Source of the DNA: the human T2T-CHM13v2.0 reference genome, Homo sapiens
Strand: one strand, 5' to 3'
NCBI RefSeq assembly: GCF_009914755.1
Contig: NC_060931.1
Length of the DNA: 64,000 bases
The number at the start of each line of letters is the position of its first letter. Positions within the stretch are counted from its first letter, which is position 1. The position numbers and the translations under genes are program-made. Positions 1 to 26,859 of this stretch are shown here, piece after piece. Under the pieces are notes generated by a model. It was given only the letters and a program-made list of their open reading frames with translations, did not search any database and had not been told where the DNA came from.

Positions 1-258
<258 letters not shown>

Positions 259-7100: not shown

Positions 7101-7104
7101 CTTT

Positions 7105-7579: not shown

Positions 7580-8292
7580 AACCCATGATTATTCTCAGTG
7601 AAATAAATGAAACATAGAAAAATACTGCATAATCTCTCTTATATGTGGAGTCTAAATAAAAAACGTCAACTATACAGAGAGAGTAGCAGTTAACTAGGAT
7701 GCACAGGTCCAGAAATATAATGAACAACATGAGGATTATGTAGGTTGAGTATCCCTAATCCAAAGATCTAAAATCCAAAATGCTCCAAAATCTGGAACTT
7801 TCTGAGCACAGACATGATGCTACACAGGTACCTGAGATAGTGGCAACACTGCCTTCTGATCATTCAACATACACAAACTTTGTTTCATGAACAAAATTAT
7901 TTAAGATATTGAATAAAAATTACTTTTAGGCTATATGTATACGGTGTAATAAAACATAAATTTTGTGTTTAGGCTTGGATCCCATCCCCCAGATATCTCA
8001 CTATGTATGTGTAAATATTCCAAAATACAGAAAAAGGCCCAAATCTGAAACACTTCTGGCCTCAAGTATTTTGGATAAAAGATACACAACCTGTAGTTAA
8101 TAAAATTGTATTGTATTGGGCATTTGCGTTAAATAAGTAGATTTAGTTGCCTGCTTTTGTCATCAAAAAAGTAACTCCATGAGATGATAGATATGTTAGT
8201 TTGCTTCACTATAGTAAACACCTTACTGTCTACATGTATCCCATAACATCACGTTGTAAGCCTCACATATGCACAAAATTTATCTTAAAAAA
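7580..8292 (+). mobile_element. Old L1M 3'-end fragment, split by Tigger4
   Basis: attattctcagtgaaataa...aaatactgcataatctctcttatatgtggagtcta; right piece gagatgatagatatgttagtttgctt...taacatcacgttgtaagcctc. Confidence 0.75.
7742..8093. mobile_element. Tigger4 (Zombi/MER46) non-autonomous DNA transposon
   Basis: TIRs aggttgagtatccctaatcc / ggataaaagatacacaacctg followed by TA; aaaatccaaaatgctccaaaatc and aaatctgaaacacttctgg motifs. Confidence 0.85.
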
Positions 8293-8455
8293 GTTTGATC
8301 AAACTAATGTAAAGCACATCCAGATTTCAAAAATGAGAAAATATGGGGAAAAAAGTACATACTGGAACTGATGAAATAAGGTAGCTGGAGATATAAGTGT
8401 GGGCTTGCTTCCCAGGTTATTGTGATGTGCAATTCTGATTAAAAACCACTAACTT

Positions 8456-8742
8456 GGCTGGCCACAGTGGCTCACACCTATAATTAATCCCAGCACTTTG
8501 GGAGGCTAGATGGGCAGATCACGAGGTCAGGAGATTGAGACCATCCTGGCTAACACGGTGAAATCCTGTCTCTACTAAAAATATTTTAAAAAATTGGCCA
8601 GTCATGGTGGCAGGCACCTGTAGTCCCAGCTTCTCAGGAGGCTGAGGCAGGAGAATGTCGTGAACTCGGGAGGCGGAGCTTGCAGTGAGCCAAAATCGCG
8701 CCACTGCGCTCCAGCCTGGGTGACAGAGCGAGACTCTTGTCT

Positions 8743-8773
<31 letters not shown>
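8456..8773 (+). mobile_element. AluY-like SINE, full length, long A tail
   Basis: Diagnostic accatcctggctaacacggtg and ggcggagcttgcagtgagc; ~30 A tail; TSD AAAAACCACTAACTT at 8441-8455 and 8769-8783. Confidence 0.95.
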
Positions 8774-8775
<2 letters not shown>

Positions 8776-10118
8776 ACTAACTTAGTCAATGTGACAGCTG
8801 CAAGTGGGACTCAAAGTTCAGATGCCTCAAAGCTGAGAGGGCTCATAGGTTGGAATCCCCATTCTTAGAACAAGAATATAACCCAATATCATAATCAACC
8901 ACCTAATTCCATAGACTGTTTATGAAACAAAAAATATTTCCTCTTGGTGTAAGAGCACCCAACCTCTAAACTTAGAAGAAGACTTCTCCCACTGAATAGC
9001 ACTTACCCGCATGAACTGGTCATGTTCATGACCAGAACACATCAGTCAATCAGATCAAAGGAGAGTATAGCACAGTTAGAAGGAAGGTGTCAAGCTGTTA
9101 GACCAAGATAGGTTTTTCTTCTTAAACATGAATTCCAATCTTGAGATTTGAGGATTATTTAGGGAGACAAAACATGATTTACATTTCAGGGAGAAGGGAG
9201 GATGATGAAGGTCACATATGTTACCAGGACGTGGCCCTAGTAGGCTTCTATTTTCCGTCTTGAGTTTTAAATTGCAGTTTGTAATTTGTTTCAAAACAAA
9301 GAAAGTAGATTTTGTATAATCTGTTTGTCTTATCAAGTTTATGGCCACTCCCATTTGCCTTCACTCTGGGAATCTTGGATGAAGGTGGGGAAGGCATGGG
9401 CCTACCCTCAACTTTATGCTAACACTCCTGCCCATAGGAAATGCATTAATTCTGTAAGCCATCACAGAACAGGACAAGATCTTATGACAGTTTTATTTGG
9501 GAGCTCAGAATTTCTAATAACTTCAATAATTATCTCCGGTAGTCTCCATGCACATGAGTTAATTATAACAAGAAAATAAAATACTTATTTCAGCTTCTAA
9601 AAATTCTAAGAATGTAAATCTCTAATGAAGTGTTGAGATAATACATAGCTGTTTTTACAAACTTTCAACTAAGAAAATTTCATTTTAACTCCTGCCTACC
9701 TCATGACCACCCAGTCCTCTCTTTATTATTACTTATGTTAATATTAATTTAATTATTATTAATTTTCTAACCAGGGCTCAACCCAGATGGACAAACAAAC
9801 ATGAAATCAGGGACTGCCAAGGACATTTCTTCAAGGTCCAAATAGTTACAAATTGTAGTGATAATGAAGTTGAAAAACACATGGATATGGATGACTTTCT
9901 CATTTTCTCACTATACTGGAAACACACACATAAACTATCAATGAAATCTATACTTCAAAAAATATATTTTCAAACCTTAGATACCTCTTCTGGTCCTGGT
10001 CCATATTGAATTCCTTTCTAAAATCAGAAATTAAAGCTTTATCATAATACTCTTTTTAAAACTACGATGTTCTTAAATTTTTATGCTTCCAATTGGAGAA
10101 TGGAACATACAAAGTATT

Positions 10119-10463
<345 letters not shown>

Positions 10464-11964
10464 TTATGTTTCCAAAAGGATAACACTGATTTTATTAAAA
10501 TGTCTACATAATTTAAATGACTGCACATGTGGAATAAAATTTAATATAAAACTCAGTCACCTGAATAATGACAACTTAGAAACAGTCACACTGGTCATAG
10601 AGAGTATCTGTCGACTTGAATGAGAAGGAAGCAGCCATGTCTTTATAGGAAACTAGTTCCTGTTTTACTATAGAGATGACAGGGGGTTGGGGTTTTATTT
10701 TCATTATTTTTTTTTTTTTTACAGATTTTACCTTGATTTAGTTGCATAATGAATGCAACACCTATTTTCCACATAAGAAGATAAAGACTGATTTGAAATT
10801 TTTCAATTCTGTCCATCACTGTTGTATCCAACTGACTTATTAGCATACACCTTGCTGCAAGGGTTTTATTTTTACTGAGGGATTCTTCGTGTGCCTCCTC
10901 ATTTTCACCAAAATGTATATAAATCTCCTGAATTTTCATGACACTGATGTGGCTAAAAATTTTAAATATTTTCAGTTCTTTGAAAATACAAGAAAAACCT
11001 TCAGAAATAAGAATTAGCCATGGTTCAGAGGTTCTGATTTGTTTTAACAAAAACATCAATTATTTCAAGTTCTCTGCTGACTAGAAAATAGTGGATTTCA
11101 TTTGATATGGCAAAGCAACTTGTTATGTTTTGTGCTACCATAAAATGCATCACAATTTATAGTAATTACCTGAATATTCAGTTTGTTTCTGGTACCCTCC
11201 TCTCAGTCCTACGTGTCTGTTAGAGAATCAAAGGGTACTGCTTGTCTAAGAAATATGCTAAAGAGAGGACAACACAATATCTGGAGAAGGAAATAAGAAT
11301 CATCAAATGCCCTTTCCTTCTTTGATATAATTCCTAAGATTACAGAAATTGAAGATAACCTAGCACACATCACCTCCAAAGAGAACAGAAGAAGGTCTTT
11401 TAACTTAATCTTGTAGATAAAATGGATTACAGGAGCTGAGTGCCCAGACTGTGAGGCAGATCAGTAACAGTTTCAACAGCTATATTCAAACGGTGTTAAC
11501 TAGTGCATCAGCATCAACCTAGTTCTAAATCTCAGAATCATAGAATTCTTTTCTGGGTTCCATTTGTTTCACCATGTTACTCAATGTCCTGGAAGAAAAT
11601 AGAGCGGACATCATAAAATTTGTAGAAGGGAGAGTGGCCATGTGGATGACTGAATGGGGTTGGAAGCTGACAGGTTGGAGACAAGGACTATATCTTAAAT
11701 TAATAAAAATAAATTTTAAAGTACTTATAGAAATGAAGTATCCACAAATGAAAAGTAATAATAGAAATAAATTGAAAAGAAATAGAAGTAAATGTAAAAT
11801 GATGTGATTAAGTCCAAAAGGACAATTGTTTTGTACAGAATGGAGATGTGGCATAGTAGCAATACAGGCAACTAAGACTTAGAGATTTTAGTCTACAGAA
11901 AGGTTAATGTGAATCAACAGTAAATGGAATATTTTTGAGTGAATGAATAAATGTAATGTATTAT

Positions 11965-12058
11965 AGGAGGGGAGAGGAGGGAAGGAGAAAAAGAGTAGGG
12001 AAGCGGAGGGGAGGAAAAGACAGGAGAGGAGAGGAAGGAGAGGAAAAGGAGAAGAGAA
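11965..12058. repeat. GA-rich low-complexity tract
   Basis: Nearly pure purine run ggaggggagaggagggaagg...gaagagaa. Confidence 0.8.
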
Positions 12059-12369
12059 TCTGTATAAAAGGAAGCAAAAGCCCCACTTATCTCTATATAG
12101 CCTGGACAACCCATGAAGTACTGCAATACAAGCATGGAGAAACTGAGCACATTCAAGCATGACCTGAGATGTACAAACAATCAAATCAATAATATCCAAG
12201 AATTCCTCAAAGTACTTGAGCATATTTACCCTGGAGATCTGATCAGCATGCTCAAATATCCTAATAACTTCACTGGGAAAAAGAATTAGAGGTGTTGTGT
12301 TTGACCCCAGTGGTTACAAGTAGGACAGATGTATTAGACTCTCTAAGGGTACCTTGGTGTCAAAGTCCT

Positions 12370-12540
12370 CTAAGGACAGAATGGCTCAGCTTGGGAGCTA
12401 CTGATCACTCTCTCTCCTGAAGATGCTGAAACCCTGATTGGATGACCCTTGGTAAGACTTTTGCAAAACCAAGTCAAGTGTTAGATAGGTGGCAGGATTA
12501 GATGATCTTTGAAAGTCCCTCCAAACCTTAAGATTCCAAT
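12370..12540 (+). mobile_element. L3/CR1 (or MIR3) 3'-end relic
   Basis: ctctcctgaagatgctgaa...ggatgaccc...ttagatgatctttgaaagtccctccaaaccttaagattc resembles the CR1/L3 terminus. Confidence 0.5.
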
Positions 12541-13744
12541 ATGTAAACATTTTCCTGTGGTGCACATTAAATCCTTACAAAAGACTTTCTCTCATAAAGA
12601 CAATGAAAACAAATGGTTAGCCTAAGGGAGGTGAACCAATCTTCAGAAAACCCTAAGAGACTCCCCTATTTTCTTGCTTGTTTGCTCGTTAGAGAACTAA
12701 TCTCCTATAAAACAGGAATTTATTAATATTTCTTTGTCCTCTGCTATACTGGCCGACTTTGGGAATTTGCACACAGCACACTTTATCTTGCTAAATATAA
12801 TAGTCTGTCTGGCATTCTTCCTTTGTGAGAAATCCTTATTCACTTGCATAAATTATGTGTAAAGATCTGAAGCATACTTTCCTTTCTTCAATACAGACTA
12901 TTCCCAGAAGTAGCCTGACACATGCCAAACATCTGCTCCCACATGCAGCTCAATACATGATATTGATATGTATTATCACTGGGTGAATTCTAAATACAAA
13001 GCCAATTTAGCACACTCCTGAACAATTCCCTCCTTCTCTCCCGGCCAAGCTGCAGGGAGCTCAAGGAAATCAGAATAATTCTAATACTTGCCTAAGCAAG
13101 CTATAACCAGGTAAATCTGCTAAAACAAAAACCACAGTATAACATTTCAAAATCTAATAAAAATTAGATACACATGATAAATATAAATGTTCATCTAATT
13201 TAATACATAGCTAAATACATAGAAGTATTTTTTAGTATCTGCTATACTTACAGTATTGAAAGACGTTGCTTTCCTCAACTGTGAATTCCTGGGTGTCTTG
13301 AGTGTTTGTTAAGCATTTATATGAGCCTAGTCCGTCTTTTAATGATCGAATGCAATTATCGTTCATGTGGTACAAAGAAAGGTGACCAGAATCCCTAAAT
13401 CTTGAAGTTTTTCTAGTCATCTATGAAAGCCTCTAGTTCTCTAACAGGTATTTTCACAAAGACCTTCAGAGTAAACTCATTTTTACTGCTAACTAGGGCT
13501 TTGGACCCAAACACCTCTCTGCTCTCTTTCCCTGGTGAAGTAACCTGGATCTCACATAAGCTTGGCAGACAGCTCCTATCCCTTGGGCTAAGGATTAATA
13601 AAACCAGCCCCAGCAGTGAATCCGTTATTTCCTTCCCAAGTCCCACACTGCTTCTGGCCCCTGGCAAAGCCACTGCCCTGGCACAGGTTACATCTGCCCA
13701 GAAGAGGCAGGTTTCCTAACTGGTGAAGTCATTATACACATCTG

Positions 13745-13880
13745 CATTGCCCAATACAGTAGCCACAAGCTGCATGTGGCAATTAGTTCCTCAGATGTAC
13801 AAGCCACATTTCAACTGCTCCATAGCCATATGTGGCTAGTATACAGAATATTTTCATCATGCGCTACTGGACAGTGTGCC
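13745..13880. mobile_element. MER3/MER33-like hAT-Charlie MITE, internally deleted
   Basis: ccaatacagtagccacaagctgcatgtggc...agccacatttcaactgctccatagccatatgtggctagt...ctggacagtg. Confidence 0.7.
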
Positions 13881-13974
13881 CTAGGATTCCATTTTGTTCT
13901 CAATTTGGGCAAACATTGTTCTTGGACTTGGGCAGACTTTATCTCCCACTTAAGGTCAGAGTATGCAAGGGTTT

Positions 13975-14140
13975 ATTCATTTATTCATTCAACAAATATT
14001 TATCAATCCCTTGTCTAACTACTGAACATATAACCACAAATAAAACAGACATGGCACCTACTCTCATGGAGCTTACATTCTGGTCAGAAAAAAATTAACG
14101 ATAAACAAGTCAACACCTAATGGAAATGATTCTTTCAGCT
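13975..14140 (-). mobile_element. L2 LINE 3' end
   Basis: ttcatttattcattcaacaaatattt...ctctcatggagcttacattctgg. Confidence 0.75.
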
Positions 14141-14699
14141 ATGAATTTCAGTATTAGTTTGTATCATTTTTAGCTTCATGGTAACAAGATATTTTGGTTT
14201 CATTCAAGTGGATCCATCCCCACAGCAGCTGGCCTGCTTTCTCTTGATTTTCTTCAGATGACAGTAACTAATGGTTTTAATATTTACTTGAATCTAGAGT
14301 TTCTTCGCCTTTGTTTCTTTAGAACTTTTACTCAAAGCTTAATTCTTGCCTCTGTCCTTGATTCTGTCTTGAAAGGTTCTCCAAACTTTAACTTTTCAAT
14401 CATCAGTTTTAAATGTAACTCTTAACTATTTATATTCTCAAATAGTACAACAAACTACTAGGCATTCGCCCTTGGAAGATACCACCTCCTCAGCTCCTTA
14501 ACCTTGGCGATAGTTCTTCAGAATTTCTCTTGAACTATTACCTTTCTTTCATTCCCAGTGGGCCATACTAACTAAGCTGTCATTTCTCATACATGAATCT
14601 CTAAAACAACCTCCCCAAAAGGTTTATTGTCTCAATTTTGTTTCCTTACAATTGGTCATGCACACTAAATCACAACTACTTTAAAAACTACTTTTAAAA

Positions 14700-15725
14700 G
14701 TGCCAGTCATTGCCTCTCTCAACCTTCTCTGCACTAGGGAAGCTCCCTTGCCCCAGTCTTTCACCCCTGAAAATGTACACCTGTGCCAAGTGTGTTCCCA
14801 CCTTTCTCTGTTTGAGAGCACCTGTCAGGTGCTAAGCCCACCACTCTCTGCAGTAGTTCTCAAGCAACCAGAGACACTAACAGACGAGAGCTTCAGCAGT
14901 TTGGCAGCCCCACATCCCCCGACCTCACTTAACCCTAGTCACAGCTTCCAAACCAGCACCACTTCAAGGGATATTGGCATAGCAGCCAAGTTCATTGGGG
15001 CTAGGACTTCCAAAGTCAGGACAGCTGGCTCTGGGGCTAAAATTGCAGCTGTGTTTGGGAGCCTCACCATTGATTATGCCAAGAACCCTGTCTGAAGCAA
15101 CAAGTCTTCTCCTATGCCATTCTGGGGCTTTGCACTCTATATATGTCAGTTTTTTGCTGCTTAGAACATCTGAAAATGGGTAATTTATTTTTAAATAATT
15201 TATTTCTTACAGTTTAAGGAGAACTTGAGTCCAAAGTTAAGAGACCATATCTGGTGGACACTCTCTACAGTCCTAAGGTAGTGCATGGTATCACATAGCG
15301 AGGAAGTTGAGCATGCTAAAGTGCTAGCTCAAGTCACTCTTCCTCTTCTTATAATGCCACCAGTTAATCCATTAACTCATTAATCCATGGATAGACTAAT
15401 CTATTCCTATGGACAGATCTCTCATGAGCCAATCACCTCTTAAAGTCCCTACTTCTCAATACCGACACACTGGGTATTAAGTTTCAACTTTGGAGGGAAA
15501 AAATATTTAAACCATAGCACCCTCTTAGAGGCCATGGAGTTCTTTGGCCTAAGGGTGGCTTTTCTCATCCTCTTCACCATGTAAAGAAGCTGTCCCCACC
15601 ATTAATAGTTCTTTCCTCCATGTCTCATCTATCTTGTATGTTCTTTTCCCTATACCTTCTCAGGCAATCTGAGAAAAGTGGTTGGCTCAAGGTTTGACAG
15701 AGGGAAGACAAATAAATACTGCATC
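14700..15725 (+). pseudogene. ATP5MC2: Processed pseudogene of ATP synthase F0 subunit c isoform 2 (ATP5MC2/ATP5G2), interrupted by an MST LTR
   Basis: Translation STCQVLSPPLSAVVLKQPETLTDESFSSLA...SFQTSTTSRDIGIAAKFIGA...AGSGAKIAAVFGSLTIDYAKNP matches the ATP5MC2 presequence and mature N-terminus. ATG at 14773 in the cacccctgaaaATG context. C-terminal codons (EAMEFFGLRVAFLILFTM-stop) resume after 15524. 3'UTR has AATAAA at 15711. Intronless, with frameshifts. Confidence 0.92.
15138..15519 (-). mobile_element. MST-family (MSTC/D-like) ERVL-MaLR solo LTR
   Basis: aatttatttcttacagtt...ccaatcacctcttaaag...aaccatagca; 5-bp TSD CACTC/CCCTC at the pseudogene's GCC CTC codons. Confidence 0.88.
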
Positions 15726-16206
15726 TTATTAGTCGGGGTTCTCTAGAGTGACAAAACTAATAGGATAAATACATCTATATCTATATCTATATCTATATCT
15801 ATCTATTTATCTATCTAGGGAGTTTATTAAGTAGTATTAACTCACATGATCACAAGGTCCCACAATAGGCTGTCTGCAAGCTGAGGAGCAAGGAAGCCAG
15901 TCTGAGTCCCAAAGCTGAAGAATTTGCAGTCCGACGTTCAAGGGCAGGGAGCATCCAGTAAAGGAGAAAGATGTAGGCTGGGAGGCTAAGCCAGTCTAAC
16001 CTTTTCATGCTTTTCTGCCCACTTTATATTCTGGCCATGCTGGCAGCTGATTAGATGGTGCCTATCCAGATTAGGGTGGGTCTGCCTTTCCCAGCCCACT
16101 GACTCAAATGTTAATCTCCTTTGGCAACACCCTCACAGACACACCCAGGATCAATACTTTGAGTCCTTCAATCCAATCAAGTTGACACTCAGTATTAACT
16201 ATCACA
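15726..16206 (-). mobile_element. MLT2A-type HERV-L LTR (left arm), contains an (ATATCT)n microsatellite
   Basis: Reverse complement begins tgtgatagttaatactgagtgtcaacttgattggattgaagg and ends ctctagagaaccccgactaata; TATA at 16023-16028 (minus). Confidence 0.93.
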
Positions 16207-17088
16207 AGTCCACCCCTTGACAACTTGAACCTATACACGTCTCCTGAGATCATACATAATCTTCAAATAAAGACAATAATGAGGTCATAATTACACCTAA
16301 TATAATACAACTATCCTTTATACAACTAGAAACGCACCAATCCCCAACCCAAATGCTATTCCATAGAGTTAACAATACTTAAATACTGACATGGATATGA
16401 GGTCAATAAATCTTATGTCACATGATAAAGGAAAAAGGAAATGAAGATATTTTCTTAGTACAAGTGTGTACATGCACAAACATGTTTTTAACAAAGAAGG
16501 AAGAAATATGACAATTACAGTCCTCATTTCTGCAACTGGTCACGTGGTCATAGCTGGTATTGATGACTACCTTCTTCTACTACCCATTCTGTATTCCCTT
16601 TGCCTTTAGCAAGCACCTCAGCAGGTCATGGTTTTTTTCCTGGAGTGACCCAAACCTTCATTCCTGAAGGGTCTGAGCCATCTGCAGTCCTGCCTGGATT
16701 GGGCTGCTGTAGTTTCCCATTGACCTTAATCACAGGGCATGGTAATACTAAGAGATGCCCTAATGAATCTCCTATATTCCCTGCATACCCTTCCTTACCT
16801 CTGTTGTGTAGTAGTAGACTGATTTCGTCTTGATAGTCTGGGTCAATCACCCCAGCCAGCACTGTAACCCCCTTCTTAGCCTGTTGACTTAAAGGTAGGA
16901 GGAGCCCAAAGTGTCCAGGTGGCAATCTTAACTTCCAGTTCAAAGGAATCATTGTTGTGTCTCCTGGTGTTCCTCCCTCTGGAACTAAGACTTCTAGGCC
17001 AGCAGAACATAATATTGTGGGAACAGGAAGCAAAATTTTGCTAGTGGGTCACTAGGAGTAATGGTGAGTGGTGCCATCAAAAGGCCAT
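16207..17088 (-). mobile_element. HERV-L internal 3' region (dUTPase, 3' untranslated region, PPT), left arm
   Basis: ORF 16626-17033 (IPLNWKLRLPPGHFGLLLPLSQQAKKGVTVLAGVIDPDYQDEI) has dUTPase motifs typical of ERV-L; PPT caaggggtggact abuts the LTR. Confidence 0.92.
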
Positions 17089-18077
17089 CCTGAAGCATCT
17101 GGATTGAAAGGATAATAGAATTGCCTTTGGAAGTCAGAATTAAAATGCCAACTAAGTGACAATACTTTGCAGGGCTGGGGCAAAGTTCTCCAGAAGGCTG
17201 TGTATGCTCTGAGCCAGCTTCCAATATACGGTACTGCTTTTCCCATAGCCAGGATATGCAGAGTCCAGGAATCAGGGGTGGAAGTGGAAGTGGCACCTCT
17301 TATTATCACCCCTAGTGACCCACTAGCAAAATTTTTGCTACCTGGACACTTGGGGTTCCTCCTACCTTTAAGTCAACAGGCTAAGAAGGGAGTTACAATG
17401 TTGGCTGGGGTGACTGACCCAGACTATCAAGATGAAACCAGTCTACTACTCCACAACGGAGGTAAGGAAGGGTATGCGTGGAATACAGGAGATCCATTAG
17501 GGCATCTCTTAGTATTACCATGCCCTCTGATTAAGGTTAATGGGAAACTACAATAGCCCAATCCAGGCAGGACTACAAATGACCCAGACACTTCAGGAAT
17601 AAAGGTTTGGGTCACTCCACCAGGAAAAAAACCCACGGCCTGCTAAGGTGCTTGCTAAAGGCAAAGGGAATACAGAATGGGTAGGAGAAGAGTGTAGTCA
17701 TCAATACCAGCTATGACCACGTGACCAACTGCAGAAACAAGGACTGTAATTGTCATGAGTATTTCCTCCTCCTTTTGCTAAAAACATGTTTGTTCAGGTA
17801 TACAGAAAATATCTTCATTTGTACCAAGAAAATATCTTCATTTTATTTCCTTTTTCCTTTATCATGTGACATAAGATTTATTGACTTCATATCCATATCA
17901 GTATTTAAGTATTGTTAACTCTATGGAATAGCATTTGGCTTGGGGATTGGTGTGTTTCCAGTTGCATGAAGGATAGTTGTATTATGTTAGGCATAATTAT
18001 GACCTTATTATTGTCTTTATTTGAAGATTACATATGATCTCAGGATGTGTATGGGTTCAAGTTGGCAAGGGTGGACT
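17089..18077 (+). mobile_element. HERV-L internal 3' region (integrase C-terminal part, dUTPase, PPT), right arm
   Basis: ORF 17167-17556 (GWGKVLQKAVYALSQLPIYG...AKKGVTMLAGVTDPDYQDETSLLLHNGGKEGY); caagggtggact before the LTR. Confidence 0.92.
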
Positions 18078-18526
18078 TGTGATGGTTAATATTGAGTGTC
18101 AACTTGATGGGATTGAAGGACTCAAAGTATGGATCCTGGGTGTGTCTGTGAGGATGTTGCCAAAGGAGATTAACATTTGAATCAGTGGGCTGGGAAAGGC
18201 AGACCCACCCTCAATCAGGGGTTCACCTAATTAGCTGCCAGCACAGTCAGAATATAAAGTGGGCAGAAAAATGTGAAAAGCTAGACTGGCCTAGCCTCCC
18301 AGCCTATATCTTTCTCCCGTGCTAGATGCTTCCTGCCCTTGAACACCAGACTCCAAATTCTTCAGCTTTGGGACTCGGACTGGCTTCCTTGCTCCTCAGC
18401 TTGCAGACAGCCTATTGTGGGACCTTGTGATCATGTGAGTTAATACTACTTAATAAACTCCCCTTTATATATAGATATAAATATGTCCTATTAGTTCTGT
18501 CACTCTAGAGAACCCTGCCTAATATA
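18078..18526 (+). mobile_element. MLT2A-type HERV-L LTR (right arm)
   Basis: tgtgatggttaatattgagtgtcaacttg start; TATAAA 18253; AATAAA 18452; ends ctctagagaaccctgcctaatata. Confidence 0.93.
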
Positions 18527-19289
18527 GATTTTGTCATTACCCTACTCAGTAATACATTATGACTCCCTATTATCTATGGAATCAAGTTTCTTTTTTATGA
18601 AGTTATTGCCTTGAAAAGATAACCCTAAAATTGAATAATTCTGTTATTTTTACCATTTTACTTAGGAGTAAGAATTATAACCTGTTTGGTTCTGAAAATG
18701 ATTTTAGACCTTTCAGGCGGATGCACCTTTTGGTTCATGTGATATATACCTGCATATGCCTCATTTTATGTAATTAAAAGTTTCCTGATAATTATACTCC
18801 CAGTTTCCAATAAATTCTTCCACCACACACACACACAACACACACACACATGCATGAAGTAGAAGAAAAGCTTTTAGAGATCATTTACTGAGCTTATTGA
18901 CACAAATGAGAGTTTTAAGAAGCACAAGCAAACAATTTTAGCATATTTTGGCCAACTTTATATATATTAATATTTCCCATTTCCTTGTCACGTGCATGAA
19001 GCCCACATCATGTCTTTTTCCACAGGGTATAAGGCCCTATGCTCAATAGCTTGAATTAGTCACAGAATGTCTTTCTGTTGGCAACTTTTGGATTAACATC
19101 CACAAATTAAAATCAGCTCAACCTCAAACTAAAGTATCTGGTTATCATTAATAACTTCGCCACTGGACAGAATGATAAAAAATAAAAAGAGAAAACTCAT
19201 TAATTTATTATGATCTCAAACTAAATGTTTTTCTCTTATGTATTTTAAAGATCTGAGAAGCAAAATTACAATTTGAGTTTATTAGTAAC

Positions 19290-19710
19290 TATCTGAGTCC
19301 ACTTTCTGTTGCTTATAACAGAATACCTGAAACTGGTTAATTTATATGGAAAATAATTTATTTCTTACAGTTATGGAGGCCGAGAAGTCTCCAAAGTCAA
19401 GGGACCATGTCTGGTGAGAGCCATCTTGCTGGCAGGGATTCTCTGTGGGGTCTCAAGGCAGTGCAGGGCAGGGCATCACATGGGGAGGAAACTGAGCATG
19501 CTTACTCAGGTCTCTCTTCCTCTTCTGATAAAACCACCAGTCACTTCTGATGACAACCCATTTATCTATTAAGCCATGAATACATTAATCAGTTAATAAA
19601 GGCAGGTTCCTCACTATCCAATCACATCTTAAAGGCCCCACCTCTCAATAGTGACATACTGGGGATTAAGTTTCAACATAAGTTTTGGAGGGGACATTTA
19701 AATCATAGCA
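19290..19710 (-). mobile_element. MST-family (MSTC/D-like) solo LTR
   Basis: tatctgagtccactttctgttgcttataacagaatacctg...aatcatagca; exact 5-bp TSD GTAAC (19285-19289, 19711-19715). Confidence 0.92.
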
Positions 19711-19824
19711 GTAACTGAAGCAGAACTACTAAAAGATTGTTAAAATATTCTAATCACCTTTTCAAAAATATATAATTCCTTTTTCATGAGGGTTAAATGT
19801 ATAAAAATTCAAAAATTCAAGTCA

Positions 19825-20114
19825 TTTTTTTTTTTAGACAGGGTCTTGTTCTATTGTCCCAGCTGGAGTCCAGTGGTACAATCATCAGTCTCTGCAGCCT
19901 CCACACTTCCTGGGCTCAAGTGATCCTTCCACCTCAACTTCCTGAGTAGCTGGGACTAAAAGCATGTGCCACCACCCCTGACTAATTTTTTTAAAACATT
20001 TTTTGTAGAGACAGGGTCTTTCAACCCTGGTCTCAAACTTCTAAGCTCAAATGATCCTCCTGCCTCTGCCTCCCAAAGTGCTGGGATTACAGGCTTGAGT
20101 CACCACACACAGGC
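19825..20114 (-). mobile_element. AluJ SINE
   Basis: agacagggtcttg...gggctcaagtgatcc...cctcccaaagtgctgggattacagg; flanking caagtca repeat. Confidence 0.9.
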
Positions 20115-20659
20115 TGTAATCCCAAGTCACTTTTATTATCATAACCTGCTTTAGTAATCAAGAGAAAGAAAATTCTTTTTATCCTTATGTCATATTTTAT
20201 TATGGTTGAATTAATTCTTATAGTTAGAGTACATCCTAAATACAACTAAAGAAGTTAACTGATGCTTAAAGTTACTAAAGCCCAAATTATTTTTACTTTT
20301 CTTTTCTTCATAATAATGTCTGTTTCTGTTATCATAAATGTAGTGGTCTCTGAGAAGCTATGCACTTTTATATTTGTTACTCAGACCTCTTGAAAAATGT
20401 TCAAAATTATTAATATACACAAATGTATAGAAAATATCCATATACATTAATATACAGAAATAATTTCCTCTCAGTAGAGGAGACTAGATCATAGTGAATC
20501 AATGTTTAACCCATTTCCCAACACCATTTAACATGAGCTTCAGGCCACTAGAATTACCTCCATTGACTTAGAAAAGTACAGAAGACATAAGTCATATCAA
20601 AGACAACAGGAAAATGTTTAATTGTGTTTAAGTGCTTCTATATTTGTATGACAATATTT

Positions 20660-20905
20660 ATTTAACAAACATTGATATAGCACTTGCTACATCAGGCAAT
20701 GTTTCAAGCTTTTTTAATAAATATTAATTCATCTAATCCTCATAACAACCTTATGAGTTAGGTAATATCATCCCTATTTTTCAAATGGGAAAACTGCGCG
20801 TAAAAGAAGTATCTTGCCTAAATCCCTAGAATCAATAAATGGCAAAGTCAGAATTTGAACCTATGAGTCTGGCTCCAGAGTCTGAGCTTTCAAGCACTAC
20901 TCCAT
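20660..20905 (-). mobile_element. MIR SINE
   Basis: catctaatcctcataacaaccttatgag...gggaaaactg...gaatttgaaccta...tctggctccagagtctgagc. Confidence 0.8.
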
Positions 20906-21069
20906 CAGGCTACCTCTCAATATTCTAAATCATTTCCATATTTGGAATCTGATTTAATATAAAGGTGTTATAGCTTTTAGTCGTGTAAAAAACTTTTCTT
21001 TTTGAGATCTGAAAGTGACTTCAGATCTCAAACACCTAAGGAGACGTGCTGGTAGAGATCTGAAAGTGA

Positions 21070-21568
<499 letters not shown>

Positions 21569-23465
21569 TTCTTGTTTACAGTTTTATCTCCAACACATGT
21601 ACCTGAGCAGACAAAGCATGATTATAAATTACTCAACAGCCAGAGAGTTAAACTAACTTCTTATCAAATTACAACACCTAAAATAAATAGGTTTCTTCTC
21701 TATACCTATGGGAGTAGGTACTCATTCCAATTTTAAAATTAGCATGTGTGTGGAAATAATCTTGTGATTTAAAGAAAATGACACTGCAGAAAACTACATT
21801 AATGAATGGTCCTCTCCATCTTGGCACAGAGATTTAAAATTTGGGTGTTTCAAAATTAAAGACACTAAAGCTCTTCGTTTAAAAAAAAAAAATGACAACA
21901 CAGATGCACTGAGCTTTTCAAACTAAAAGTCAGGAATATATATCAAGCTACTATCACAAAACACTTCCATCAAAACCCTGCAGGAAGCAAACAATTGCCA
22001 GCTAGCACATCACCCTTCATGCGAAATGACGTGCGTCATTTTGTGCAAAGGACATCAAAAGAACTTGTCAGTTAAACAGAGGATTTAGATATACCATGAG
22101 AAAACTTTCATGCACCACTTTACATATTTCCAGCAAAATTGCTATAGAAGCACTTAAGGCACAATAATTTGAACCTAACTTGACTTAAGTAACCAACACA
22201 AACTACTTTTCTAAAATGTCTCCTATTTTCATAAGTGATAGAATTTAGTTATAAAAGTCCTACTAACTCTTGTAAAATAATCTACAGAGACATGGTGATT
22301 CATTTGCTTTCATTCAGCAGCATTTGCTTGTAAAATTATTAATTATGTGCCTATTATGTGCTAGGTACTCTATTGGGTGTTCTTGTACAAATCATTTTTC
22401 TGCCAGCAAAGCCATATTTTTTTGAGTTAGTAATTCCCAGATTTTTGTCAAATTCAACAGCATTATGCAATGAGTTCTTAGTATGTACAGTAAGGAAGAG
22501 CAGAATTTTAGTTGATGTAAGTAATTCTACATTTTATTTTGGATAACAGGAACATACAAACTATATACATGCAACCTGAATATTCTTATTAACTGTTCAT
22601 TTTGCATTTCTGTCCAATTTGACCAGTGAATTCACTCAAATAGTCAAGTTGGCTTTGGCATTTAGGTAGGACCAGTAGGTCCATAAAGTGAGAGAGTCAA
22701 ATGGGTAATGGAAGACAAACTCCCTCCTAGATCACAAGCTCCTGAGAATAAGAACTGTGACTTCTATAGTACTGGGGCCAAATGTATTTCCTGGCACAGA
22801 CTATGCATTAATATATGATTGTTTGAATGAAAGAATGACCTCACTAAACTTCTCCCAAACATATAAAACTATATCCCATCTGTAAAAATTTCCAGAGGGA
22901 CCAGACATGATGATGGTCATTTGGTCATTATCCTTATTAATATTAACCTTCCTAAGTACAGAGATCCCATAGAGGCTCTTAGGGTACAATAAATCAAACC
23001 TAAGTACATTAATTAACCAATACAAGTTATAACTTTACTAACAGTTATTATTTTCCGTTAAATTTCCTAAATTCTCTTAATCTTTTATCACTGAATCTGT
23101 TTTTTTAAACTTTTTTCTTATCTTTTAAATTATTCTGATTATTAAGTTAAAGGTTAACAAGATAATAAATCATAACTCTGCTTCAAAGCTTGCCAGCTTA
23201 AATTCTATTAACAATGCCTGATTATTCAAGCTTATCTCCTTTTTATAACTTTGAAAATAAGCTGAAATCTGCACCTCTAATCACAGTGTCCTGTACCCTT
23301 TCAACTATACGTTTGCCTTGCCTTCCACTAAATCCTAAACTAGAGCAGGGGTCAGGTTCTTGTTCCTCTTTCTTGCCATCCTCTCACCCTGACACGCACT
23401 ACTGTATCCACTTCAAGGGCATGTTCAGGAAAGATAATATAGCACTGCAAAAATGGGCTACTGGG

Positions 23466-23766
23466 GGCTGGGCACGGTGGCTCATGCCTATGATCCCAGC
23501 ACTTTGGGAGGCCAAGGCAGGCAGATTGCTTGAACCCAGATGTTTGAGACCAGCCTGGGCAACATGGCAAAACCCCATCTTTACAAAATGTACAGAAAAT
23601 AAATAAAAATAAAAATAAATAGCCAGGCATGGTGGTGCGTGCCTGTGGTCCCAGCTACTCCAGAGACTGAGGTGGGAGGATCACCTGAGCCCAGGAGGTA
23701 GAGGTTGCAGTGAGCCACTGCACTCCAGCCTGGGTGACAGAGCAAGACCCTGACTCAAAAAAAAAA
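23466..23766 (+). mobile_element. AluJ SINE
   Basis: ggctgggcacggtggctcatgcc...cagcctgggcaacatggc...gaggtgggaggatcacctgagcccagg...gcaagaccctg. Confidence 0.92.
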
Positions 23767-23957
23767 TGGGGGATAGGAAGGCAGAGAAAAGCACCCCGAA
23801 GCCCTCGGGCGGAAAATTGGATTAAAACCTTAAAGAGAAGTAAAATATTCTCCTTTACTGTCTCCATTTCAGTCATTGCCTTTAAAATTCATACATATAT
23901 TCCACTAGTGCTAACCTAAGAGAATCAGCATTATTTAATATCCATTGCCTCAGACAC

Positions 23958-24420
23958 TGTTGTTTGGCCAACCATACTCATTCCCAGGCCCCAGCCACCT
24001 TCTTCTGTGGCTAGGAACACTAAATACTTATTTTTCCTGCTTCTCTTGCAGCTAAGCATTGCCCTGGACACAGTTCTGGCTGATGAGATACAAGCAAAAC
24101 CCACCAGAGGGTTCCCTGAAAAGATTTTGCTTTCATGATTAAAAAAAAAAAAAGGAGAAATATGGCTGGCATTGTCACTTCTCCCTTCATCATGTCCTGA
24201 ACATACAATACCTAGGCTTGCATTATGTATTTTGCAACCGTGAAATAAAAAGCATGAAAATGAAAAACAAACTCAATGGGAATGGTGGAACAGAGGATTA
24301 AACAGGATTATTAAGCAACTAAACCTATGCAAACAATCCCCTGTTTTCAGATAGCTTGATGTGGGAATAAAAGATTGTTGACGTTACCGTTACTTACAGA
24401 CAAATGCTTTCCAATGGAGA
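23958..24420 (+). mobile_element. MLT1 (J/K/L-like) MaLR LTR
   Basis: tttcctgcttctcttgcagcta...cagttctggctgatgagatacaagc motif. Confidence 0.65.
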
Positions 24421-24434
24421 TGCTACTTAAGACA

Positions 24435-24630
24435 GCCATGGTTTAAATCCTGGTTCTGCCTTTTACTGTGTGACCTTGGGCAACTTAATAAACTTTTCCA
24501 AGCCTCCATTTCTCATCTGTAAATGGGCATAAGTGAAATTGCTACAATAGCATTGTTGTGAAAAATATAAAATAATGCATTTCAAGTACTTGGCATTGAA
24601 TTTGGCACAAAGCATTTCTCTCAAACATTA
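24435..24630 (+). mobile_element. MIR SINE
   Basis: tttaaatcctggttctgcc...tgtgtgaccttgggcaa...ctcatctgtaaatggg. Confidence 0.8.
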
Positions 24631-26426
24631 AAAGCACATTTTAATACTAAACACAATAGAAATGTTTTAAAAATAAATGTTGCTTTTTTCTCCAAATAAT
24701 TACATATAAAAATTAAACATTTAGGGTGTTAGAGAAGTCAATTCTTTATTTTTAAAATCATCATTATATATAGTTTAACTTAAGACAATTTACAATAAGA
24801 ATTAAAATGTATAATGTAAATGTAAAATGTACATTTGTGTAATTAGGTAGTACAAATATTAACTAATAATTGCTATGTGGATTAAATTTTTTATATTATT
24901 CTAATTATTGTGATACAAAATAAGCCATTTCCTCCAGCACAAGATAGACTGAAATGACTGGCAGTAACCTCACAACTTCTTGTTGCCATACCACCCAGAA
25001 ACCTGAGACATGTGAATCTTTACTGTTCCACTTACTAGGTTATTTTCAGGACATTCAATCATTTCTCTTTAATCATTGAAGGAAACAGCAAATCTCTGTT
25101 TGTTGTTTCGCTTTGTTTTAGTCAGAAGCATTTTTGCTTCACTTCAACAAGATCATCACTCCAATTGTTTCTCTTTAGCAGCTTATCTTACAAGGCCAGT
25201 AAAAGACTGTGTTCCGAAGCCTAGAGACTTTCCATTTATAGCTTTCCATTAAGCCTCTTAAAAGTAGGTATTTACACAAATTAATTACTTAAAAGGTAGG
25301 GCCTTTTATGAAATAGCTTTTTTATTAATTCAAAGAGATTATAATTTTTAATCTAAACCTTTTTAAAAAGGATTTGAGTCGACTTACAACAAAAGACATA
25401 AATAGATTAAGATTGTTAAAATAAACCAAAACATATGCAAATACTGGGAAAAAAGGATGCAAATAAAAAAATCATGATGGCCACAATTATGCAAAACATT
25501 TAACTGTGAACTTCTACTAAAGCAAAAATGGAAACAGAGTTGATTTTTAAAATCTCATTATGTTAGAGGGAAAGTGTATGGTCTATATTTTTATATGCTG
25601 ATACTCAGTGTAGCCTTAGTACTAAAATTTCAGTAGGAATTTCTCTCATGGCCCTTCCCCAAGAAAAATTAAGTTCCATAATACACAGTGTTTTCATCAG
25701 TGAGGTTCAGTGGCTGCTTTGAACTTTAATAAAAGTCAATAGCATGACATTATACCAGTAATTTTAAAATGATTTTAAGCTATGGAATCTGAAAAAAATA
25801 TGCAGCAGCTAAATATATAAAATTATAGATAAATAAGAACTTCTCTAATTGAAACAGAGTTAAAGTGCCTAAAGCTACTATAACCAGTGATTACAGAATC
25901 TGAGTAAGGAAAAAAACTGTAGCCAATAAACTGATCACAGTGCCTTGCTTAGTTACAAATATACAAATGCAAATACAATGTCCTAAGCTCTTATGCTCTC
26001 CTGACAAGGTTGGGGATGAGGCAAGAATGTCTACTCTCATTGCTCTTATTGAACATTATACTGCAAGTCCCAGTTCAATAAAGCAAAAAGAAAAAATGAC
26101 ACATAAGGAAGACAGGAAGAAATAAAACTGTCTTTATTCAGAAAGAGTGTATTGTGCATGTAGAAAATCTTAAAAATCTACAAAAAGCCACTAAATCTAA
26201 TAAGTTAATTGAGCAAGATTGCAGGATACAAGTTCAATAGAAAACAACCATTTGTATTTCTATATATTAACAATAGGCAATTGGAAATAAAACAAAATAT
26301 ATTCACAACAGCATCAAAAATCATGTAAAACTAAGGATTAAATCTAACAACAGGTGGGCACAGGCAGTTCATTAAAAATTACAAATTATTACCAAGAAAA
26401 ATTAAAGAAAAATTAAATAAGGATAT

Positions 26427-26859
26427 TTCTATGGAGTGAATTTTGTCCCCTTCTCTACTTCAGTTTATATGTTGAAACCCTCAATGTGACAGTATTATAA
26501 ATGGGTACTTTGATAGGTAATTAGGTTTACATGAGGCCATGAGGATGGGCCCTCATAATTAATTAGTGTCTTTATAAGAAGAAACACCAGAGAGCGTGCC
26601 ATCTCTCTCTCCGTGTGTGTGTGTGTGTGTGTGTATGTGTGTGTGTGTGTGTGTGTGTGTACACAAAGAGGTCATGTGAGCACACAGTGAGATGGTGGCC
26701 ACCTGCAAGCTAAGAGAAGGGACTTCAAAATAAAACTTACCTTCCCAGCACCTTTATCTTGGACTTCCCAACATCCGTAACTATGAGAAAATAAATTTCT
26801 ATTATTTCAGCTACCCAGTCTATGATATTTTGTTATGGCATCCCAAGCTGACTAAGACA
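26427..26859 (+). mobile_element. MLT1A-type MaLR LTR containing (TG)n at 26613-26660
   Basis: ctatggagtgaattttgtcccc...gaggtcatgtgagcacacagtgagatggtggccacctgcaagc...ctgactaagaca. Confidence 0.85.

What the first reader, a model, noticed from the sequence alone, without database searches (positions are those of the whole stretch)
15726..18526. ~2.8 kb fold-back palindrome made of two copies of the same HERV-L 3' end, LTRs facing outward
Seen: 15726-~17076 and ~17290-18526 are reverse complements at roughly 90% identity by eye. Each arm is dUTPase, 3' region, PPT and MLT2A LTR. Known: a normal provirus has direct-repeat LTRs around gag-pol. Here gag and most of pol are absent and the LTRs are inverted. 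The arms share variants that differ from the consensus as I recall it: gaaggaCTCaaagta, ataaagTGggcag, taatacTACttaataaa, gtcActctagag and a catatc/catgtc duplication before agtatttaag. Inference: both arms derive from one copy by fold-back replication or reverse transcription, or were homogenised by gene conversion, rather than being two independent insertions. Long, closely spaced inverted repeats are generally unstable, so persistence is notable.
Basis: partly seen in the sequence, partly recalled or inferred. Interest (0 to 1): 0.85.

Follow-up and report, generated by a model that had tools for sequence, protein, structure and literature searches.

The report
Ancient snap-back HERV-L palindrome
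Two mirror-image copies of the tail end of an ancient HERV-L retrovirus-like element lie head to head in a GRM8 intron, and their joints suggest that a reverse-transcribed DNA which had folded back and copied itself was patched into a chromosome break tens of millions of years ago instead of being inserted in the usual way.

Summary
15726-17076 (minus sense) and 17291-18526 (plus sense) are inverted copies, 91.7% identical over 1205-1215 aligned bases. Each is a pol tail with a dUTPase domain plus one LTR of about 445 nt.

The element is old and fragmentary: no gag, no envelope, broken pol tails.

The arms are each other's nearest relatives, but only just, and unlinked copies can be equally close.

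The joints carry the stronger evidence:
- **Inner joint.** The two copies are separated by 9 nt. These are the exact reverse complement of a stretch 37 nt inside the right copy, as 6 of 8 relatives preserve it.
- **Outer ends.** Both arms end at the LTR tip, and there is no target-site duplication.
- **Right flank.** It begins with 7 bases that otherwise follow only a 5' LTR.

Best reading (about 0.6): an unfinished first-strand cDNA snapped back, copied itself to its free end, and was captured at a chromosome break without integrase. LTR divergence between the arms (K2P 0.084) is like that within two related proviruses (0.094, 0.128). The event therefore dates to the family's activity, roughly 20-55 million years ago. 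Interest is moderate.

The parts
15726..17076 (-). Left copy as a whole: 5'-truncated HERV-L 3' end (pol tail with dUTPase domain, 3' non-coding part, one LTR). Read here as the snap-back copy.
   Evidence: In 8 of 8 relatives, homology stops exactly at 17076. The outer end is the LTR tip.
15726..16207 (-). LTR of the left copy, about 482 nt, lengthened by a microsatellite.
   Evidence: extraction against the right LTR; 92.1% identical to it over 445 positions.
17077..17085 (.). 9-nt templated insertion at the head-to-head joint.
   Evidence: It matches neither copy's continuation (0-2 of 9 in 8 relatives). It is the reverse complement of the stretch 37 nt inside the right copy: 9 of 9 in 6 relatives, 8 of 9 in 2 relatives and in the right copy itself.
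17086..18526 (+). Right copy as a whole: 5'-truncated HERV-L 3' end reaching 205 nt further into pol than the left copy. Read here as the template (first-strand) copy.
   Evidence: In 8 of 8 relatives, homology starts exactly at 17086. Also.
18078..18526 (+). LTR of the right copy, about 449 nt, of MLT2A1-like length.
   Evidence: The 5' LTRs of two relatives align from about 18080 to the tip. Consensus lengths of 444 and 549 bp are from PMC8559712 (passages).
18527..18533 (+). 7 bases beyond the right LTR tip, identical to the bases that follow the 5' LTR of a relative (spacer before the primer-binding site plus its first bases). Such bases are present only in unintegrated cDNA.
   Evidence: 7 of 7 against the chr10 relative and 5 of 7 against the chr9 relative. 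The 13 control 3' flanks share 0-2 leading bases.
15723..15725 (-). 3 bases beyond the left LTR tip that may be the same cDNA-only extension. This is ambiguous.
   Evidence: The match depends on reading a 1-nt deletion in the LTR tip. Under the other register, no bases match.
15163..15488 (+). Neighbour: left member of an older direct repeat (77-84% identical to 19320-19677). Possibly the LTR pair of an older element that encloses the palindrome.
19320..19677 (+). Neighbour: right member of the same older direct repeat.
1..64000 (-). Host gene GRM8. The palindrome lies in an intron; the nearest exon is 24398-24485.
   Evidence: RefSeq table supplied with the finding.

Best explanation
The palindrome is a fossil of one aberrant reverse-transcription product of a HERV-L element (MLT2A1-type LTR). 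It was inserted without integrase. The proposed steps are:

1. First-strand (minus) cDNA had been extended from the LTR back through the dUTPase region to just past the integrase core. This strand is now the right copy.
2. Its 3' end folded back on its own strand. It copied 9 nt from a site 37 nt away, let go, and re-primed 205 nt from the end.
3. It then copied itself all the way to its free 5' end. This copy is now the left arm.
4. The self-complementary molecule had the cDNA's unprocessed U5 terminus at both ends. It was captured at a chromosome break by end joining in the germ line or early embryo of an ancestral simian.

What is shown: the bounds of both copies, the templated 9 nt, the run-off at the LTR tips, the 7 leader-type bases, the missing duplication, and the age relative to kin. 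What is inferred: which polymerase made the switches, how the hairpin became double-stranded, and the break-repair pathway.
For: - **Inner joint.** In 8 of 8 relatives, homology of the left copy stops at 17076 and that of the right copy starts at 17086.
- **Templated 9 nt.** The 9 nt between the copies are the exact reverse complement of the element stretch 37 nt inside the right copy in 6 of 8 relatives, and 8 of 9 in the other two and in the right copy itself. A match of at least 8 of 9 within 50 nt arises by chance in 2.2% of random 9-mers. For 9 of 9 my arithmetic gives about 8e-4.
- **Microhomology.** A 3-nt microhomology, 5 nt in one relative, lies at the first switch in 8 of 8 relatives.
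- **Direction.** The template site lies in the 205 nt that only the right copy has. This fixes which copy was the template.
- **Outer ends.** Both arms stop at the LTR tip, as expected for copying that runs off a free end.
- **Right flank.** It starts with 7 bases identical to those after the 5' LTR of the chr10 relative, against 0-2 in 13 control flanks.
- **No target-site duplication.** Abutting 5-mers agree at 1-3 of 5 positions in four registers. The longest shared word is 4 nt, which is chance level. ERV-L integration makes 5-bp duplications (PMC4516963, passage).
- **Age.** LTR K2P is 0.084 between the arms, against 0.094 and 0.128 within two related proviruses and 0.111-0.154 between unrelated LTRs.
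- **Arm similarity.** The arms are reciprocal nearest relatives, and mismatches are even along them.
- **Precedents (passages read).** MuERV-L fragments are captured at breaks in mouse zygotes without LTR ends or duplications (PMC4516963). In yeast, 40 of 56 Ty1 3'-LTR insertions at breaks carry extra bases found only in cDNA (PMC11372161). Reverse transcriptase extends self-primed minus-strand DNA in vitro (PMC6088434).
Against: - **Thin comparison for the 7 bases.** Only two 5' LTR junctions of relatives could be seen, and they differ from each other at 2 of the 7 positions. The ancestral state rests on few data.
- **Left end.** The evidence there is 3 bases at best and depends on the register chosen.
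- **Second switch.** There is no strict microhomology at it (0 in all sequences).
- **Current right copy.** It shows 0 microhomology at the first switch and 8 of 9 for the template. The argument therefore leans on relatives as proxies for the ancestral sequence.
- **Sisterhood.** Support for the arms as sisters is weak: bootstrap 0.42 with 15 relatives, and with CpG-prone columns removed a rival pairing reached 0.48.
- **Pre-insertion site.** It could not be recovered, because one search found no paralogues of the flank. A deletion or microhomology at the target is untested.
- **Polymerase.** Host polymerases also make snap-back templated insertions at breaks (10.1101/2024.03.07.583931, abstract start in a search listing). 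The enzyme is therefore not identified.
- **Missing step.** How a hairpin would be opened and made double-stranded is not shown.
Confidence: 0.58

Rival explanations
1. Two separate unfinished cDNAs of the same source (for instance from one particle) were joined head to head. The joining was by end joining or by a jump of the growing strand onto the 3' end of a second molecule. The dimer was then captured at a break. This is the same insertion route as the best explanation, but without an intramolecular fold-back for the long arm.
For: There is no microhomology at the second switch, which fits an end-to-end jump or a ligation. The 9-nt snap-back insertion is also what polymerase-theta-type joining leaves (recalled). 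Multi-fragment captures with short unexplained bases are reported in mouse zygotes (PMC4516963, passages). The cDNA-type outer ends are as in the best explanation.
Against: It needs two molecules stopped within 205 nt of each other out of an element of about 6 kb, plus three joints. The arms share 7 private states and an LTR distance no larger than that within a provirus. This fits one template at least as well.
Confidence: 0.15
2. A resident HERV-L copy that had integrated normally was later rearranged by host DNA replication. A fork-stalling and template-switching type fold-back replaced its 5' part with an inverted copy of its 3' part.
For: Templated insertions, short microhomology and an asymmetric centre are typical of replication-based inverted duplications (recalled; foldback insertions at breaks in 10.1101/2024.03.07.583931, abstract start only).
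Against: A copy made on chromosomal DNA should run on into the flank. Instead the left arm stops at the LTR tip, within 3 nt. The right LTR is followed by 7 leader-type bases that a processed integration would have removed. No duplication flanks either register. The LTR distance between the arms is as large as within proviruses of the same family, which leaves little time between insertion and rearrangement.
Confidence: 0.12
3. Two independent, ordinary HERV-L integrations landed in opposite orientation close together. A later deletion removed both 5' parts and the DNA between them.
For: The arms are hardly closer to each other than to other copies. Blast scores are 1480 bits against 1397-1338 for the next eight. 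Unlinked pairs are equally close by shared branch (2 of 105). Another locus holds two HERV-L pieces in opposite sense (L010).
Against: The two deletion ends would fall within 205 nt of each other in element coordinates by chance; I estimate under 10%. The 9 nt at the joint are templated from the right copy in inverted sense. The right LTR carries cDNA-only bases. The arms are reciprocal nearest relatives, with 0 of 105 kin pairs as close.
Confidence: 0.06
4. The arms were unrelated copies made alike by gene conversion between the inverted repeats.
For: Closely spaced inverted repeats can convert each other (established knowledge). The longest identical run of 85 nt is slightly long (4.5% of permutations reach it).
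Against: Mismatches are even, at 4-12 per 100 positions with variance/mean 0.62, and 77% of permutations are at least as dispersed. The distance between the arms is like that of LTR pairs within proviruses. Conversion does not explain the joints.
Confidence: 0.03
5. Assembly artefact: a chimeric fold-back read.
For: None was found here. Reads were not available.
Against: The arms differ at about 8% of aligned positions and by several private length changes, including one of about 107 nt and microsatellite lengths. Artefactual fold-backs are near-identical.
Confidence: 0.01

Closest known systems
Ordinary HERV-L remnants with MLT2A1 LTRs (class III, ERV-L family)
   Same: A dUTPase domain follows the integrase in pol (this order is described for MuERV-L in PMC1224870, passage). 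LTRs are about 445 nt, against an MLT2A1 consensus of 444 bp (PMC8559712, passage). Many copies 85-88% identical occur across the genome.
   Different: There is no direct LTR pair, no gag and no 5' LTR. Two 3' ends lie in mirror image. There is no 5-bp duplication. Leader-type bases follow a 3' LTR.
Capture of MuERV-L and MaLR sequences at double-strand breaks in mouse zygotes (PMC4516963, passages read)
   Same: It involves the same retroelement family, truncated inserts, no integrase-type duplication, short bases of unknown origin at joints, and heritable early-embryo events.
   Different: The reported inserts were truncated at both ends, lacked LTR ends and were 327-950 bp. No inverted self-copy was described in the passages I read.
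Ty1 cDNA intermediates inserted at breaks in yeast (PMC11372161, passages read)
   Same: The 3' LTR region is the hotspot. 40 of 56 such inserts carry extra bases present only in cDNA, the same kind of mark as the 7 bases here.
   Different: That work is in yeast and experimental, with short inserts. No palindromic product was described in the passages I read.
Self-priming of minus-strand DNA by reverse transcriptase (HIV-1 strong-stop DNA in vitro; review PMC6088434, passages read)
   Same: The 3' end of a first strand, freed of its RNA template, folds back and is extended on itself.
   Different: It is known from test-tube reactions with a defined hairpin and is counted as a dead-end product. 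Here the fold-back would be in pol, in two steps, 1.35 kb long, and fixed in a genome.
LINE-1 twin-priming inversions (recalled; only the listing of PMC2912911 was seen)
   Same: A retroelement insertion with an inverted part, made during reverse transcription.
   Different: Twin priming inverts one part without duplicating it and uses target-primed synthesis. Here the same stretch is present twice.

Membership tests
HERV-L / ERV-L (class III) with MLT2A1-type LTR | A dUTPase domain encoded after the integrase at the end of pol. | tested here: met
   Pfam dUTPase in the left arm E=1e-10; right arm E=2.4e-4, 21.3 bits against a cut-off of 22. In relative L009, one open stretch holds the end of the integrase core (E=5.4e-6, 27 bits, below the cut-off of 32.6 because partial) followed by dUTPase (E=6e-9). 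This order is described for MuERV-L in PMC1224870 (passage).
HERV-L / ERV-L (class III) with MLT2A1-type LTR | LTR of MLT2A1 length (consensus 444 bp) rather than MLT2A2 length (549 bp). | tested here: met
   The right LTR is about 449 nt and the left about 482 nt with a microsatellite expansion. Four LTRs of relatives are 441-446 nt. Consensus lengths are from PMC8559712 (passage). This is a test by length only.
HERV-L / ERV-L (class III) with MLT2A1-type LTR | Match to the curated MLT2A1 and HERVL-int models (Dfam/Repbase). | not testable with these tools
No repeat library was on hand. None of the 33 protein hits carries the name HERV-L.
HERV-L / ERV-L (class III) with MLT2A1-type LTR | Primer-binding site for a leucine tRNA. 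| not testable with these tools
   The remnant has no 5' LTR or leader. Two relatives show a conserved stretch 5 nt after the 5' LTR. Its match to a leucine tRNA is recalled, not tested.
HERV-L / ERV-L (class III) with MLT2A1-type LTR | Many dispersed copies of similar divergence in the genome. | tested here: met
   6545 first-look candidates, of which 40 were scored. Copies on many chromosomes are 80-87% identical.
Canonical integrase-made provirus or solo LTR | A 5-bp target-site duplication abutting processed LTR tips. | tested here: not met
   1-3 of 5 positions agree in four registers. The longest shared word is 4 nt, which is chance level. 7 leader-type bases follow the right tip.
Canonical integrase-made provirus or solo LTR | Two LTRs in direct orientation around gag-pol. 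| tested here: not met
   The LTRs are inverted and face outward. Each copy starts in the pol tail.
Retroelement cDNA captured at a chromosome break | Bases at an LTR end that exist only in unintegrated cDNA. | tested here: met
   Right end: 7 of 7 against one relative's 5' LTR junction and 5 of 7 against the other, with controls at 0-2. The left end is inconclusive (3 or 0 bases by register).
Retroelement cDNA captured at a chromosome break | Microhomology or a small deletion at the target, seen against the empty site. | not testable with these tools
   No primate orthologues were available. The search for paralogues of the flank found only microsatellite hits.
Fold-back (snap-back) inverted duplication | An asymmetric centre that continues one arm, with a templated insertion or microhomology at the switch. 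| tested here: met
   205 nt continue the right copy. The 9-nt inverted templated insertion is shown. A 3-nt microhomology lies at the first switch in 8 of 8 relatives and none at the second.
Fold-back (snap-back) inverted duplication | Arms identical at birth. | tested here: inconclusive
   LTR K2P is 0.084 between the arms, against 0.094 and 0.128 within two proviruses. This is consistent with identity at an event of family age but does not prove it.

The most novel reading that the evidence does not exclude
This locus is a preserved, base-by-base record of a self-primed (snap-back) retroviral first strand that was made into a 2.8-kb palindrome and fixed in the primate germ line by integrase-independent capture at a chromosome break. 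If so, the dead-end products of reverse transcription known from test tubes have contributed to genomes. ERV-L cDNA capture, seen experimentally in mouse zygotes, would also have operated in ancestral simians. Such events would create ready-made long hairpin-RNA loci inside genes.
Probability: 0.45. Interest if true: 0.6.

Novelty: new variant of a known kind. Interest (0 to 1): 0.45.

Why it matters
Nearly all endogenous retrovirus copies are read as integrase products or their later decay. This one keeps three marks of another route: a templated inverted insertion at the inner joint, run-off at both LTR tips, and cDNA-only bases after a 3' LTR. Together they make a natural, datable example of break repair by capture of an aberrant reverse-transcription product in the primate lineage.

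It also suggests a simple census that could show how common the route was: 3' LTRs followed by leader bases, and mirror-image 3' ends.

As a side effect, the GRM8 pre-mRNA should carry a hairpin of about 1.2 kb. That is a candidate substrate for RNA editing, which public RNA data could check. The element itself is old, fragmentary and without gag or envelope, so it has no bearing as a virus.

Tried and rejected
**Flank-contiguity test.** I hoped to map both outer flanks onto paralogues of the older element that seems to enclose the palindrome (direct repeat). The second and last genome search, with the right flank, returned only the locus itself and 14 microsatellite hits. As a result I ran no reciprocal search with the left arm and no genome-wide census of outward-facing pairs. 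Among the 40 candidates scored, only L010 shows two pieces in opposite sense, and in a different arrangement.

**Extended flank-leader similarity.** Local alignment of 400 nt of each flank against 600 nt after two 5' LTRs gave scores at shuffle level (40-99 of 200 shuffles as good). Only the first bases match.

**Exclusive shared states with 8 relatives.** The arms had 3, no more than other pairs. With 15 relatives they had 7.

**Upstream regions.** One of the three fetched (L021) held no LTR.

**Masked-repeat table.** It was of no use for naming.

**Paper look-ups.** The ERV-L family paper PMC104094 is not held. In PMC4531489 only a reference-list passage matched.

**Literature searches.** (listings only) gave no paper describing a fold-back or palindromic endogenous retrovirus insertion. 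That is the extent of my claim that it is not in print.

**Closed supplements.** The supplementary tables of PMC8559712 list MLT2A coordinates and could confirm the subfamily label. I could not see them.

**Primate orthologues, Dfam models and reads.** None of these was available.
Full report
**1.

One search found eight collinear inverted-repeat pairs (83-96% complementary) running from 15727-17076 against 17291-18524, with 214 nt between the innermost arms. Blastn against the reverse strand gave one 1136-column match at 89.1% including gaps, plus end pieces reaching 15723/18529 and 17076/17291. Global alignment gave 1114 identical of 1215 aligned positions: 91.7%, 79 transitions, 22 transversions, K2P 0.089, 192 gap columns. 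With the arms cut at the LTR tips, 1105 of 1205 positions were identical. Nothing else in the genome is near-identical to the region. The only 100% hit is the locus itself. Arms that differ at 8% of positions and carry private length changes are not what a fold-back read artefact gives.

**2. What the pieces are**

Each arm is the 3' end of one retrovirus-like element, read outward.

- **Domain content.** Pfam finds a dUTPase domain in the left arm (E=1e-10, 41.9 bits). The match is weaker in the right arm (E=2.4e-4, 21.3 bits against a cut-off of 22).
- **Domain order.** In relative L009, one open stretch carries the end of the integrase core (E=5.4e-6, partial, under the cut-off) followed by dUTPase (E=6e-9). 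L006 also shows the integrase end. A dUTPase after the integrase is the arrangement described for MuERV-L (PMC1224870, passage).
- **LTR length.** The LTRs are about 449 and 482 nt, the longer one stretched by a microsatellite. Four LTRs of relatives are 441-446 nt. This fits the 444-bp MLT2A1 consensus rather than the 549-bp MLT2A2 (PMC8559712, passage).
- **Protein relatives.** The dUTPase piece finds 33 named proteins, 56-89% identical. They are mostly dUTPase-like predictions from primates, whale, elephant, armadillo and horse. None is named HERV-L.

The family name therefore rests on domain order, LTR length and kin copies. No repeat library was available to test it directly.

**State of the genes**

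Gag, protease, reverse transcriptase and nearly all of integrase are absent from both copies. No envelope region is present. Counts for the pol tails:

| Copy | In-frame stops | Frame changes | Other |
|---|---|---|---|
| Right | 3 | 1 | one internal deletion of about 107 nt relative to the left arm; all 8 relatives examined carry that stretch |
| Left | 1 | 2 | none |

The counts depend on which of four reference proteins is used. The remnant is old, fragmentary and far from whole.

**3. Are the arms sisters?**

Only marginally, by sequence.

- **Genome search.** With the right copy as query, the left arm is the best non-self hit (1480 bits). Eight unlinked copies follow closely (1397-1338 bits). 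Only 40 of 6545 candidates were scored.
- **With 8 relatives.** Arms K2P 0.110; arm to kin 0.125-0.151; kin to kin 0.109-0.158. Bootstrap for the arms as sisters was 0.90-0.91. They had 3 exclusive shared states, no more than other pairs.
- **With 15 relatives.** The arms are reciprocal nearest neighbours at 0.104, and 0 of 105 kin pairs are as close. Bootstrap falls to 0.42. With CpG-prone columns removed, a rival pairing of the left arm with L024 reaches 0.48.
- **Shared history.** The arms share 7 states seen in no relative (rank 1 of 136 pairs; the next has 4). The fitted shared branch is 0.0094 (bootstrap 95% range 0.0025-0.017). Two of 105 unlinked pairs share as much.

The arms come from the same source lineage. 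Sequence alone cannot tell one event from two. Most of what looks like shared variants is ordinary family variation.

**4. Age**

LTR-only K2P is 0.084 between the arms. It is 0.094 and 0.128 between the 5' and 3' LTRs of two related proviruses, which were identical when they integrated. It is 0.111-0.154 between unrelated LTRs. Mismatches are even along the arms (4-12 per 100 positions, variance/mean 0.62), so there are no conversion tracts.

The arms therefore separated at about the time the family was integrating. With K of 0.084-0.110 and neutral rates of 1.0-2.2e-9 per site per year (recalled values), that is about 19-55 million years. PMC8559712 (passage) places MLT2A1/2 insertion in the ancestor of simians, 45-65 million years ago.

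**5. The inner joint**

In 8 of 8 relatives the left copy's homology stops exactly at 17076 and the right copy's starts exactly at 17086. The right copy reaches 205 nt further into pol.

The 9 nt between them continue neither copy (0-2 of 9 matches). They are the reverse complement of the element stretch that begins 37 nt inside the right copy. The match is 9 of 9 in 6 relatives, and 8 of 9 in two relatives and in the present right copy, which has since changed. By simulation, 2.2% of random 9-mers find at least 8 of 9 within 50 nt. For 9 of 9 my arithmetic gives about 8e-4.

In 8 of 8 relatives the strand end at the point matching 17086 shares 3 nt (5 in one) with the bases just before the template site. 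At the second switch there is no strict microhomology, though the two template sites share a 4-7-nt word.

Read on the minus strand, the whole 2.8 kb is one strand:

1. The right copy in minus sense.
2. Nine bases copied from itself.
3. A plus-sense copy of itself from 205 nt back to the LTR tip.

The template of the 9 nt lies in the part that only the right copy has. This fixes which copy was the template.

**6. The outer joints**

- **LTR tips.** The LTR ends of 13 relatives could be located, out of 15 examined. In 11 of them the end is the same terminal dinucleotide, followed by unrelated host sequence. Both arms end at that tip, at 15726 and 18526.
- **Right flank.** In the two relatives whose 5' LTR I could fetch, the tip is followed by a short spacer and a conserved stretch that begins as a primer-binding site should. 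The first 7 bases of the palindrome's right flank are identical to that sequence in the chr10 relative (5 of 7 in the chr9 relative). The 13 control flanks share 0-2 leading bases.
- **Left flank.** It shares 3 bases if a 1-nt deletion in the tip is assumed, and none otherwise.
- **No extended similarity.** Beyond these bases the flanks do not resemble the leader.
- **No target-site duplication.** None appears in any of four registers. ERV-L integration makes 5-bp duplications (PMC4516963, passage).

Bases after the LTR tip exist only in unintegrated cDNA, because integrase removes them. The same mark identifies Ty1 replication intermediates inserted at breaks in yeast, in 40 of 56 3'-LTR inserts (PMC11372161, passage).

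**7. Mechanism**

The best-supported account is that the fold-back happened on a free cDNA, before insertion.

1. The first strand had reached just past the integrase core.
2. It snapped back in two steps.
3. It was copied to its own 5' end.

This explains why the left arm stops at the LTR tip instead of running into the flank. The product, with unprocessed termini on both sides, was then joined into a chromosome break.

Precedents (passages read):
- Reverse transcriptase extends self-primed minus strands in vitro (PMC6088434).
- MuERV-L fragments are captured at breaks in mouse zygotes (PMC4516963).
- HERV-L/MLT2A is transcribed in human cleavage-stage embryos (PMC8559712).

What is shown: the bounds, the templated insertion, the run-off, the cDNA-type right end, the missing duplication and the relative age. 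What is inferred: the polymerase, the conversion of a hairpin into duplex DNA, and the repair pathway.

**8. Rivals**

- **Two unfinished cDNAs joined head to head.** This fits the outer ends equally and is hard to exclude.
- **A later replication fold-back on an integrated copy.** This fits the inner joint. It does not fit the run-off at the tip or the leader bases.
- **Two ordinary integrations plus a deletion.** This explains neither joint.
- **Gene conversion and assembly artefact.** Both are contradicted and by the divergence of the arms.

**9. Stability and consequences**

The structure was born with a 214-nt centre. In yeast, widening a spacer from 12 to 100 bp lowers inverted-repeat recombination 300-fold, and divergence lowers it further (PMC10164571, passages). 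Persistence is therefore not surprising.

On the GRM8 sense strand the region folds to -2070 kcal/mol, against -730 to -766 for five shuffles. 1147 of 1236 bases of one arm pair with the other arm. An intronic hairpin of about 1.2 kb is therefore predicted. Whether it forms or is edited was not tested.

**10. Novelty and limits**

Each component is known. I found no description of the combination, in three literature searches seen as listings only. That combination is a snap-back self-copy of an endogenous retrovirus cDNA, captured without integrase and fixed.

Limits:
- Only two 5' LTR junctions were seen.
- The sample was 15 relatives, chosen from the 40 candidates that were scored.
- There were no orthologues, no repeat library and no reads.
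- Supplementary tables were closed.

Noticed in passing
window 15163-15488 and 19320-19677: A direct repeat, 77-84% identical and about 4.16 kb apart, brackets the palindrome. It looks like the LTR pair of an older element into whose interior the palindrome was inserted. By recall it resembles a MaLR-type LTR. The interior flank has no detectable paralogues.
   Followed up: partly
L010 (G000:C23:54907417-54909548), about 142-300 versus 450-1990: A 159-nt HERV-L pol-tail piece lies in opposite sense about 150 nt beyond the LTR tip of a longer copy. The arrangement is convergent, not the divergent one of the window. It may be a nested insertion.
   Followed up: partly
one search hit list (P0001, P0008, P0010, P0014, P0016, P0023, P0027, P0030, P0032): Proteins labelled as bacterial or fungal (for example Hafnia, Clostridium, Escherichia, Helicobacter, Staphylococcus, Rhizopus) are 76-89% identical to this HERV-L dUTPase piece. 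Most sit on contigs of 359-3088 nt. This looks like human DNA contaminating those assemblies.
   Followed up: no
loci L028/L030 and L003/L026: Unlinked HERV-L copies on different chromosomes form well-supported sister pairs (bootstrap 0.98 and 0.91). Their shared branches are as long as or longer than that of the two arms. The family therefore has source sub-lineages.
   Followed up: partly
3' flanks of relatives: Three of 13 located 3' LTR flanks begin with the same two bases as the leader, and 5 of 13 with the same first base. This could be a target preference or occasional incomplete end processing in this family.
   Followed up: no
window about 15767-15815 and 18823-18850: A tetranucleotide microsatellite has expanded inside the outer part of the left LTR, adding 29 nt relative to the right LTR. 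A dinucleotide microsatellite lies in the right flank and gave all the spurious hits.
   Followed up: no
right arm, pol tail: In relatives, the private deletion of the right arm is bounded by a short direct repeat (overlapping match ends). This is the pattern left by slippage-type deletions.
   Followed up: no
window 15726-18526, minus strand: As part of the GRM8 pre-mRNA the region is predicted to fold into a hairpin of about 1.2 kb: MFE -2070 kcal/mol against about -750 for shuffles. It is a candidate double-stranded RNA in a brain-expressed gene.
   Followed up: partly
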